This document shows positions 1-1,060 of a stretch of 1,060 bases of DNA, piece by piece; position 1 is the first letter of the stretch, and each line of letters starts with the position of its first letter. The translations under genes and the position numbers were made by a program. Below the pieces are notes generated by a model that saw only the letters and a program-made list of their open reading frames with translations, did not search any database and was not told the origin of the DNA. The stretch is from Naegleria gruberi (Eukaryota): NCBI GenBank assembly GCA_000004985.1, contig GG739587.1, one strand, 5' to 3'.

Positions 1-1
1 A

Positions 2-220
2 TATGGTATTTGTTATGAAAAAAAAAGTCAATTAATTTATCTAATTGATACATTTGCAAAGGCAGTTTATGTATTTAGAAAACATGATATGGGTCTAGTA
101 CATAAATGGGAATTGACTCAGTATTTATCTTCCAAAACATTATATGGCATTTCATTGAATCCAAGGAAGGGAGAATTATTTTTACCTGTTTCTGACCATT
201 CAGTTATAATTATGGAGTAA
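2..220 (+). CDS. 3' end (C-terminal 72 aa plus TAA stop) of a protein-coding gene that extends beyond the left window edge; product unknown. Translation: YGICYEKKSQLIYLIDTFAKAVYVFRKHDMGLVHKWELTQYLSSKTLYGISLNPRKGELFLPVSDHSVIIME*
   Basis: Plus-strand frame 2 is open from nt 2 to 217, with TAA at 218-220. The other two plus frames carry about 6-7 stops each over the same span, as expected in sequence this AT-rich. GC is about 28% over 1-220 (61 G/C by my count) and about 8% in the spacer that follows. The amino-acid composition is diverse and not low-complexity, and the codon choices match the downstream GST gene (caa Gln, cca Pro, ggt Gly, tta Leu). An AATAAA hexamer sits 24 nt past the stop. 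It is missing from the ORF track, presumably because it is edge-truncated or under the length cutoff. I recognise no homology by eye. Confidence 0.5.
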   Translation, partial: YGICYEKKSQLIYLIDTFAKAVYVFRKHDMGLVHKWELTQYLSSKTLYGISLNPRKGELFLPVSDHSVIIME

Positions 221-243
221 ACATTGATTTAATATTAGATTGG

Positions 244-249
244 AATAAA
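244..249 (+). terminator. Putative polyadenylation hexamer AATAAA for the plus-strand gene, 24 nt downstream of its TAA
   Basis: The sequence aataaa is at 244-249. The spacing from the stop is plausible, but such hexamers arise by chance in DNA this AT-rich. Confidence 0.3.
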
Positions 250-307
250 TTATTATTATTATTATTATTAAACAATTAACAATTATTTTTTATTATTATT
301 ATTATTA
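249..307. repeat. Two (TTA)n/(TAA)n microsatellite blocks (about 250-270 and about 291-307) forming most of the 89-bp convergent intergenic spacer (221-309)
   Basis: A direct read shows tattattattattattatta and then tattattattattatta, separated by aacaattaacaattattttt. The spacer is about 8% GC (7 G/C in 89 nt by my count). Confidence 0.9.
289..294 (-). terminator. Putative polyadenylation hexamer AATAAA (tttatt on plus) for the minus-strand GST gene, about 16 nt downstream of its TAA
   Basis: Plus strand 289-294 is tttatt, which reads aataaa on the minus strand. Chance occurrence is likely in DNA this AT-rich. Confidence 0.25.
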
Positions 308-309
308 AA

Positions 310-1060
310 TTAATAATATGGTTCTGAATCTCTTTCAGATTTAACAATTTCATTAACAATTTTTCTATTAAAAATTCTTTCTAAATATTTACCTAAAAAT
401 GGTAAATCTCTAGCCTTTAAATTCATATTTCTAGTCCAAGTAGCAACAACAAATAAATAAATATCAATAATACTATATTCATTATTACCTAAAATATATT
501 CTCTACCATCTTTTAATTCATTTTCAAATATTTTAAATTTTTCAAACATTCTTTCTTCTGTTTCCTTTTTAAGTAATTCTTCTTGTTCAATAGATTTAAC
601 ATAACGATGTGAATAATAATAATGATATGAATCATTTTGTAATGAATTACAAATTAAAGACATCCATTGATGAAATTTTGCTCTTTTTTGTAAATTATTT
701 CTATTTGGTTCTAATTTTCCATTTATAAATAATTCACTTAAAAAGTAACAAATAGCTAATGTTTCATATATTACTATAATAGTAGGTTCATTATTATTAT
801 CATTTATATTATTATTATTATTATTAATATATTCAATTACTAAAGTAGGTACAATTCCTTGTGGATTTAATTTTAAATATTTTTCAGATTTTAAATCCTT
901 GACATCTCTTGATAAATTAATAATTTCAACTTGATGAATATTTTGAGTATTTGTATTATTTAATAATTCACCTAAAATAATACGTGGTATCATACCAGCT
1001 GTTGATGGTATACTATATATAGTAAATTTTAATGGTTGATTAATATCAATGGAAGAGTGG
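310..1060 (-). CDS. Glutathione S-transferase, bacterial beta-class-like (GstA-type), 5'-partial. The TAA stop is at 310-312 and the coding frame continues past the right edge. The ORF-track Met at 991-993 is internal.
   Basis: All GST landmarks are present in order. beta1 plus active-site loop: PLKFTIYSIPSTAGMIPRIILGEL (encoded 994-1035 and downstream), compared with E. coli GstA [22 protein letters not shown]. VDL..NPxGxVP motif: IINLSRDVKDLKSEKYLKLNPQGIVPTL (NPQGIVP = 847-867). ES-AI GSH-binding helix: IYETLAICYFL. C-terminal domain: RAKFHQWMSLICNSL, ELKDGREYILGNNEYSIIDIYLFVVATWTRNMNL and KYLERIFNRKIVNEIV, compared with GstA [49 protein letters not shown] and AFMQRMAERPEVQDAL. Upstream of the Met at 993 the frame reads HSSIDINQPLKFTIYSIPSTAG with no stop before the window edge. 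Confidence 0.9.
   Translation of the reverse strand, partial: HSSIDINQPLKFTIYSIPSTAGMIPRIILGELLNNTNTQNIHQVEIINLSRDVKDLKSEKYLKLNPQGIVPTLVIEYINNNNNNINDNNNEPTIIVIYETLAICYFLSELFINGKLEPNRNNLQKRAKFHQWMSLICNSLQNDSYHYYYSHRYVKSIEQEELLKKETEERMFEKFKIFENELKDGREYILGNNEYSIIDIYLFVVATWTRNMNLKARDLPFLGKYLERIFNRKIVNEIVKSERDSEPYY
790..825 (-). repeat. In-frame coding (AAT)n trinucleotide repeat encoding a poly-Asn tract (NNNNNNINDNNN, residues 57-68 of the track protein) inside the GST N-terminal domain
   Basis: Plus strand 790-825 is almost pure (att)n, interrupted once each by atc (Asp) and tat (Ile). The minus-strand reading is aat codons. It lies between the predicted beta3 (TLVIEY) and beta4 (TIIVIYE) strands. 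Confidence 0.9.

What the first reader, a model, noticed from the sequence alone, without database searches (positions are those of the whole stretch)
994..1060. GST start is mis-called: the ORF-track Met (991-993) is internal, and the conserved N-terminal beta1/active-site segment lies upstream and runs off the window
Translating the minus strand in frame upstream of the track's Met gives HSSIDINQPLKFTIYSIPSTAG(M)IPRIILGEL with no stop. KFTIY followed by SIPSTAG is the canonical GST beta1 strand and catalytic loop (E. coli GstA has [14 protein letters not shown]). A protein starting at MIPRIIL would lack beta1 and the residue that activates the glutathione thiol, so it would be non-functional. 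The true start codon, and possibly a short N-terminal extension or a 5' intron, is therefore beyond position 1060. Any annotation that takes 310..993 as the gene would describe a truncated, inactive protein.
Basis: seen in the sequence. Interest (0 to 1): 0.5.

Follow-up and report, generated by a model that had tools for sequence, protein, structure and literature searches.

The report
GST gene cut by contig end
The window is a whole 1,060-base orphan scaffold carrying an ordinary glutathione S-transferase gene whose true start lies beyond the scaffold end, so the public 227-residue protein model begins at a conserved internal methionine and lacks the first strand and active-site loop.

Summary
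On the minus strand the frame of ORF 310..993 stays open through 994..1059 and reads HSSIDINQPLKFTIYSIPSTAG before the called Met.

- A family HMM built without this sequence aligns from profile position 2 to residue 12 of the extended protein. It scores 13 bits more than the truncated one, and 0 of 500 shuffles of the 22 residues reach that score.
- An AlphaFold model (pLDDT 93.6) puts strand beta1 at residues 10-16 and the loop at 17-22. Helix alpha1 starts exactly at the called Met.
- That Met sits in the family motif A-S-M-x-P-H and is internal in the closest relatives and several bacterial family members.
- 994..1060 holds no ATG in any frame and no AG acceptor before the beta1 codons. 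The Naegleria orthologues are single-exon. The start is therefore beyond the contig end.

The public model (EFC35204.1, Naegleria gruberi, 227 aa, contig length 1060) has exactly this truncation. This is a routine contig-edge annotation artefact in a bacterial-type (beta-like) GST.

One oddity is unexplained: the scaffold has 21% GC and 5% GC3, against 35% for the N. gruberi genome.

The parts
310..1059 (-). 5'-incomplete coding sequence of a glutathione S-transferase: 249 codons plus stop at 310-312. It runs off the right end of the scaffold.
   Evidence: Translation. Pfam GST_C scores 38.7 bits (cut-off 20.7) and GST_N_2 25.8 (cut-off 25). The AlphaFold model has pLDDT 93.6. Foldseek hits are PDB GSTs with TM up to 0.87.
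994..1059 (-). The 22 in-frame codons upstream of the called Met (HSSIDINQPLKFTIYSIPSTAG). They are real coding sequence.
   Evidence: +13.3 bits against the family profile, and 0 of 500 shuffles reach that score. N. lovaniensis residues 10-228 align with query residues 10-249.
1012..1032 (-). Codons of strand beta1 (residues 10-16, LKFTIYS) of the thioredoxin-like N-terminal domain.
   Evidence: DSSP on the model gives E10-16. These residues align with the ikLyy start of the family profile and with MKLFY of GstA.
994..1011 (-). Codons of the beta1-alpha1 loop (residues 17-22, IPSTAG), the position of the catalytic loop in GSTs.
   Evidence: P18 and A21 are in nearly invariant columns of the 12-sequence alignment A1. 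GstA Cys10/Ser11 align with A21/G22.
991..993 (-). ATG taken as the start by the ORF track and by the public gene model. It is an internal Met (residue 23), the first residue of helix alpha1.
   Evidence: It aligns with the Met of A-S-M-I-P-H in N. lovaniensis, N. fowleri, P0153 and bacterial relatives. H23-34.
790..825 (-). Asn-rich low-complexity insertion (NNNNNNINDNNN, residues 79-90) in the beta3-beta4 hairpin loop.
   Evidence: The model has a loop between E72-77 and E94-98, with pLDDT 67 for residues 81-90. The Naegleria relatives have a shorter insertion at the same place.
221..309 (.). Spacer of very low GC between two convergent reading frames.
   Evidence: GC is 0.11-0.12. Sequence.
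2..220 (+). Convergent open frame (72 codons plus stop at 218-220) that runs off the left end of the scaffold. Its identity is unknown.
   Evidence: The only hit is a weak Pfam Arylesterase match (E 0.027, below cut-off). There is no protein or PDB relative.

Best explanation
The window is a complete 1,060-bp orphan scaffold filed under Naegleria gruberi. Its minus strand carries all but the first few codons of an ordinary soluble glutathione S-transferase of a bacterial-type (beta-like) lineage also found in N. lovaniensis and N. fowleri. The scaffold ends inside the N-terminal extension of the gene, upstream of strand beta1. The gene caller therefore fell back on the first in-frame ATG (991-993). 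That ATG is a conserved internal methionine at the start of helix alpha1. The real protein has at least 250 residues, and its start codon lies beyond position 1060. The published 227-residue model lacks beta1 and the beta1-alpha1 loop that lines the glutathione site, so as written it describes an incomplete thioredoxin-like domain. Shown here: the open frame, the homology of the upstream segment, the predicted secondary structure, the absence of any ATG, and the identity of the public model. Inferred: that the truncated form would be inactive, and that the missing part is only a short extension of a few to a few tens of codons.
For: - Frame and sequence are.
- The public model is 100% identical to ORF 310..993 and sits on a contig of length 1060.
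- In an exhaustive phmmer search the best relative, N. lovaniensis C9374_011282, aligns residues 10-228 to query 10-249. Many full-length relatives start 1-3 residues before the residue aligned with query 12-14.
- The internal Met is conserved in ASMIPH / ASMAPH.
- Family profile without the window: extended 183.7 bits covering profile 2-211, truncated 170.4 bits covering 13-211, and 0 of 500 shuffles reach the extended score.
- AlphaFold: pLDDT 93.6, pTM 0.90, beta1 at residues 10-16, alpha1 at 23-34. The fold matches solved GSTs.
- The orthologues are single-exon genes.
- A neighbour-joining tree puts the window protein with the three heterolobosean-type proteins in 100 of 100 bootstraps.
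- There is no ATG in any frame of 994-1060 and no AG before the beta1 codons.
Against: - The missing 5' end was not recovered. No other public protein or contig carries this gene, so the true start codon is not observed.
- Pfam GST_N models do not reach beta1 on this sequence.
- Residues 1-9 (HSSIDINQP) are not conserved, and their coding status rests on the lack of a splice acceptor and on frame continuity.
- Loss of activity in the truncated form follows from general knowledge of GST structure, not from a test.
Confidence: 0.9

Rival explanations
1. The ATG at 991-993 is the genuine start. The upstream open frame would then be 5' UTR or promoter DNA that is open by chance.
For: From the base composition, twenty-two open codons occur by chance about 10% of the time. 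Pfam N-terminal models do not cover the segment.
Against: The segment adds 13.3 bits to a family profile, and 0 of 500 shuffles reach that score. It folds as beta1 with pLDDT above 90. Its GC matches coding DNA, not spacer. All full-length relatives have beta1 before the equivalent Met.
Confidence: 0.03
2. The segment 994-1060 contains part of a 5' intron, and the first coding exon lies elsewhere.
For: About half of Naegleria genes have introns (47% in N. lovaniensis, PMC6125883). AG dinucleotides occur at about 1012-1013 and 999-1000 on the coding strand.
Against: Both AGs lie downstream of the beta1 codons, whose homology is significant. There is no AG between 1060 and 1013. The three closest relatives are single-exon. 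An intron further upstream, beyond the contig end, is not excluded.
Confidence: 0.04
3. This concerns origin, not the start site. The scaffold is not ordinary N. gruberi nuclear DNA but comes from another, very AT-rich eukaryote (a contaminant or misassigned read cluster) that carries a heterolobosean-type GST.
For: - The window has 21% GC and the coding region has 5.2% GC3. Codon use is near-exclusively A/T-ending, with TTA for 24 of 25 Leu and AAT for 30 of 30 Asn.
- The N. gruberi genome is 35% GC (PMC6125883 Table 1). The N. lovaniensis orthologue is 34% GC with 29% GC3.
- There is no synteny with the N. lovaniensis or N. fowleri locus.
- The protein is seen only in the original assembly's annotation, with no Logan or ENA copy.
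- ContScout lists the N. gruberi assembly as contaminated (PMC10831095).
Against: - The closest relatives in 1.84 billion representatives are Naegleria proteins and one metagenomic eukaryote, with 100/100 clade support.
- No dictyostelid or other AT-rich eukaryote relative appears, and the next hits are GC-rich bacterial-type proteins.
- N. gruberi is known to show little synteny with N. fowleri (PMC6125883).
- No N. gruberi DNA was available here to measure the spread of GC3 among its genes.
Confidence: 0.3

Closest known systems
Naegleria lovaniensis C9374_011282 (XP_044554451.1, 228 aa) and N. fowleri FDP41_005761 (234 aa), annotated GSTs
   Same: They are the closest relatives (41-47% identity over the full length). 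They share the N-terminal extension before beta1, the motif (S/G)-M-I-P-(H/R), EKFKIF(D/E), an insertion in the beta3-beta4 loop and the C-terminal EPY(Y/F). The clade has 100/100 support.
   Different: The window gene has a longer Asn-rich insertion, Gly22 for Ser and Arg26 for the nearly invariant His. Its GC is 20.5% and GC3 5%, against 34% and 29%. The genomic neighbours differ. Its 5' end is missing.
Bacterial beta-class GST (E. coli GstA; Proteus mirabilis GST B1-1, PDB 1pmt/2pmt)
   Same: The fold and domain order are the same. The best NCBIfam model is GstA. 1pmt_A aligns chain residues 4-194 to query residues 15-238. Foldseek TM is up to 0.87 to bacterial GSTs.
   Different: The score is far below the GstA equivalog cut-off (51.9 against 198 bits). 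The active-site Cys10 is replaced by Ala21. It carries a eukaryotic N-terminal extension.
Alphaproteobacterial GST family proteins (e.g. Allostella vacuolata, Azospirillum sp., 209-210 aa)
   Same: They are 46% identical to the Naegleria protein and 34-35% to the window protein (P0154 and P0156, the latter from Allostella). They share the motif P-x-T-A-(S/G)-M-A-P-H and the C-terminal EPYY.
   Different: They start directly at beta1 (MYxLY...) and have no loop insertion. They are bacterial genes.

Membership tests
Soluble (cytosolic-type) glutathione S-transferase superfamily | N-terminal thioredoxin-like domain with order beta1-alpha1-beta2-alpha2-beta3-beta4-alpha3 | tested here: met
   DSSP on the AlphaFold model gives E10-16, H23-34, E41-48, H59-64, E72-77, E94-98 and H100-110, with pLDDT 93.6. 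It is met only if the 22 upstream codons are included.
Soluble (cytosolic-type) glutathione S-transferase superfamily | All-helical C-terminal domain recognised by GST_C profiles above the curated cut-off | tested here: met
   PF00043 scores 38.7 bits (cut-off 20.7), PF13410 27.8 (24.9) and PF14497 23.2 (21.6).
Soluble (cytosolic-type) glutathione S-transferase superfamily | Conserved glutathione-site residues of the N domain: the Pro before beta3 (cis-Pro in solved GSTs) and the Glu at the beta4-alpha3 turn | tested here: met
   P71 is invariant and E99 is invariant or nearly invariant in alignments of 12 and 72 relatives. Their roles are taken from general GST knowledge.
Soluble (cytosolic-type) glutathione S-transferase superfamily | Glutathione binding and conjugating or thiol-transferase activity | not testable with these tools
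   No biochemical data are available.
Beta-class GST / GstA equivalog (NCBIfam NF007831) | Score above the curated equivalog cut-off (198 bits) | tested here: not met
   The window protein scores 51.9 bits and the N. lovaniensis relative 97.9 bits.
Beta-class GST / GstA equivalog (NCBIfam NF007831) | Active-site cysteine (Cys10 of E. coli and P. mirabilis enzymes) at the N-terminus of alpha1 | tested here: not met
   The aligned residue is Ala21, and the next (Ser11) is Gly22. The GstA sequence was entered from memory.
Heterolobosean clade of bacterial-type GSTs (N. lovaniensis C9374_011282, N. fowleri FDP41_005761, metagenomic P0153) | Monophyly with these proteins against bacterial relatives, plus the shared motifs EKFKIF and the extension before beta1 | tested here: met
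   Neighbour-joining bootstrap support is 100/100. The motifs are seen.
Heterolobosean clade of bacterial-type GSTs (N. lovaniensis C9374_011282, N. fowleri FDP41_005761, metagenomic P0153) | Conserved genomic neighbourhood (orthology by synteny) | tested here: not met
   In N. lovaniensis and N. fowleri the downstream convergent gene is a 2OG-Fe(II) oxygenase / methyltransferase fusion. The window's convergent frame has no similarity to it.

The most novel reading that the evidence does not exclude
The scaffold is not typical N. gruberi nuclear DNA. It could come from an unsampled, extremely AT-rich eukaryote that shares the heterolobosean bacterial-type GST lineage and contaminated the 2010 assembly. 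Or it could be an extreme compositional island in N. gruberi. Either way, D2W6U8_NAEGR would be both truncated and possibly misattributed.
Probability: 0.3. Interest if true: 0.25.

Novelty: already known. Interest (0 to 1): 0.1.

Why it matters
It matters mostly as database hygiene. The record EFC35204.1 / XP_002667948.1 / D2W6U8_NAEGR should be flagged as 5'-partial. As it stands it enters GST alignments, orthology tables and structure predictions as a complete protein that lacks beta1 and the catalytic loop. Nothing about GST biology changes. The aberrant base composition of the scaffold is a small warning for comparative studies that take the N. gruberi proteome at face value.

Tried and rejected
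- **Dictyostelid contaminant.** This was my first guess, from 21% GC, Asn runs and codon use. The exhaustive search returned no dictyostelid relative. The nearest proteins are Naegleria ones, and the rest are GC-rich bacterial-type GSTs.
- **Recovering the missing 5' end.**
  - An exact look-up of the public protein found no contig on record.
  - A 29-nt exact scan of metagenome contigs found nothing.
  - A protein-guided scan of metagenome contigs gave 600 pattern matches, all caused by the Asn-rich words, and none was a relative.
  - The word-indexed protein search found only the truncated model itself.
- **Synteny with N. lovaniensis and N. fowleri.** I tried it to prove orthology and found none.
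- **Identifying the convergent 72-codon frame.** Pfam gave only Arylesterase at E 0.027, below cut-off. The protein search gave nothing. The best PDB hit had E 1.5. A resemblance to paraoxonase that I recalled from memory was not reproduced by the PDB search and is dropped.
It was uninformative, because coverage starts at profile position 24-31 with or without the extension.

Full report
**What is in the window.** The 1,060 bases are 21% GC. The minus strand carries an ORF at 310..993 (227 aa, MIPRIIL...). Its product is a glutathione S-transferase: Pfam GST_C scores 38.7 bits against a cut-off of 20.7, and GST_N_2 scores 25.8 against 25. A word-indexed search of 5.8 billion proteins returned a single hit. 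It is 100% identical over 227 residues and is named glutathione S-transferase [Naegleria gruberi]. Its accessions are EFC35204.1, XP_002667948.1 and D2W6U8_NAEGR, and its longest contig is 1,060 bp. The window is therefore the entire scaffold, and the ORF-track model is also the public gene model.

**Checking the observation.** Translating 310..1059 on the minus strand gives HSSIDINQPLKFTIYSIPSTAG, then MIPRIILGEL..., with no stop, exactly as reported.
- Base 1060 is the last base of a cut codon, NNC, so the codon adjoining the end is not ATG.
- The stretch 994-1060 has no ATG in any of the three frames of that strand.
- Openness alone is weak evidence. With this base composition about 10% of random codons are stops, so 22 open codons arise by chance roughly one time in ten (my arithmetic from the counts).
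- The GC content of 951-1050 (23%) resembles the coding body, not the 11-12% of the 3' spacer.

**Is the upstream segment homologous to GST N-termini?** An exhaustive phmmer search of 1.84 billion representatives found 377 relatives at E <= 0.001.
- The best is N. lovaniensis C9374_011282 (P0002, 228 aa, 47% identity), aligned 10-228 to query 10-249. The two N-termini are in the same register.
- Many full-length relatives begin 1-3 residues before the residue that aligns with query residues 12-14.
- I aligned 71 relatives returned by a second search and built a profile without the window sequence. The extended fragment scores 183.7 bits and covers profile positions 2-211 from residue 12.
- The ORF-track protein scores 170.4 bits and covers only positions 13-211.
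- None of 500 versions with the 22 residues shuffled reaches the real score (mean 172.6, sd 1.7, max 178.1).
- PDB chain 1pmt_A (Proteus mirabilis beta-class GST) aligns chain residues 4-194 with query residues 15-238.

**Structure.** An AlphaFold2 model of the 249-residue fragment, using the 72-sequence alignment, has mean pLDDT 93.6 and pTM 0.90.
- DSSP gives beta1 at residues 10-16 (LKFTIYS), a loop at 17-22 (IPSTAG), and helix alpha1 at 23-34. The called Met is therefore the first residue of alpha1.
- Foldseek against the PDB returns only GSTs, with TM-scores normalised on the target of up to 0.87.
- A protein starting at MIPRIIL would lack the first strand of the thioredoxin-like sheet and the loop that carries the catalytic residue in GSTs. 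That this makes it non-functional follows from established GST structure, not from a test here.

**The called Met is a conserved internal residue.** N. lovaniensis (TAASMIPH), N. fowleri (TAASMIPH), the metagenomic eukaryote P0153 (SSASMIPH) and bacterial relatives (TASMAPH, TAGMAPH, TASMIPH) all have Met at this position. Other relatives have Leu. This explains why an ATG was conveniently available to the gene caller.

**Where the start is, and whether there is an intron.**
- Relatives have 0 to 16 residues before beta1: bacterial MYxLY..., P0153 MTVHFTLY, N. lovaniensis MATLTMSPNYSITLY, N. fowleri MSSQQQHEPLNSTPTIITLY.
- The window already has 11 residues before Phe12 without a Met, so the start is beyond 1060.
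- The N. lovaniensis, N. fowleri and P0153 genes are single exons, because gene length equals three times (residues + 1).
- The coding strand has no AG between 1060 and 1013, so no canonical acceptor can precede the beta1 codons inside the window.
- An intron further upstream cannot be excluded.

- The family consensus is P-x-x-A-S-M-x-P-H. Gly at the Ser position recurs in other members (P0156, P0084, P0146).
- The nearly invariant His is Arg26 here, as in P0049.
Which residue activates glutathione (Ser19, Thr20, Tyr15) is not established.

**Family placement.**
- The best NCBIfam model is GstA, but at 51.9 bits against a cut-off of 198, and the beta-class cysteine is absent. The protein is beta-like, not a GstA equivalog.
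- A neighbour-joining tree of 40 sequences places the window protein with P0153, N. lovaniensis and N. fowleri in 100 of 100 bootstraps, against 36 bacterial-type proteins.
- The shared motifs are EKFKIF(D/E), the extension before beta1, and an insertion in the beta3-beta4 loop.
- The Naegleria protein is about as similar to alphaproteobacterial GSTs (46-48%) as to the window protein.

**Unexplained composition.** The coding region has 20.5% GC and 5.2% GC3.
- Codon use is almost exclusively A/T-ending, and the loop insertion is an Asn run.
- N. gruberi is reported at 35% GC (PMC6125883, Table 1). The N. lovaniensis orthologue has 34% GC and 29% GC3.
- There is no synteny with the other Naegleria loci.
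- The protein has no copy from any other public dataset.
- ContScout counts N. gruberi among contaminated assemblies (PMC10831095).
- Against contamination, the only close relatives anywhere are heterolobosean-type. The origin remains open and does not affect the start-site conclusion.

**Verdict.** This is a contig-edge truncation of an otherwise ordinary GST gene. The public record should be marked 5'-partial. Interest is low.

Noticed in passing
window 1-1060 (coding 313-1059, minus strand): The base composition is far from that of the labelled organism. The window has 21% GC and the coding region 5.2% GC3, with TTA for 24 of 25 Leu and AAT for 30 of 30 Asn. N. gruberi is reported at 35% GC and the N. 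lovaniensis orthologue has 29% GC3. The protein is known only from the original assembly. It could be a contaminant or a compositional outlier.
   Followed up: partly
window 2-220, plus strand: A convergent open frame of 72 codons runs off the left end and stops at 218-220. Its GC is higher (about 30%) than the rest of the window. The only hit is a sub-threshold Pfam Arylesterase match (E 0.027). No protein or PDB relative was found.
   Followed up: partly
window 790-825, minus strand: An Asn-rich insertion (NNNNNNINDNNN) lies in the beta3-beta4 loop of the GST N domain, at the spot where the Naegleria relatives have a shorter insertion and bacterial relatives have none. It is the only low-confidence part of the model (pLDDT 67), and it probably explains why Pfam GST_N models fail to span the domain.
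   Followed up: partly
L001 6001-6687 (N. lovaniensis), L003 4001-4705 (N. fowleri), L002 1355-2053 (metagenome): The heterolobosean GST clade is about as close to alphaproteobacterial GSTs (46-48% identity; Allostella, Azospirillum) as its members are to the window protein. The genes are intronless. This fits a bacterial origin of the lineage by gene transfer, which was not tested by a proper phylogeny.
   Followed up: no
window 982-984, minus strand (residue Arg26): The His that is nearly invariant in the family motif M-x-P-H is Arg in the window protein, and the usual Ser before the Met is Gly22. Both substitutions recur in a few other family members, so they do not by themselves indicate a dead enzyme.
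   Followed up: partly
(tool behaviour): The word-indexed protein search missed the 47%-identical Naegleria relative when queried with the window protein, and missed the window protein when queried with the relative. This happened although the two share several 5-6-residue words. Only the exhaustive search linked them.
   Followed up: no
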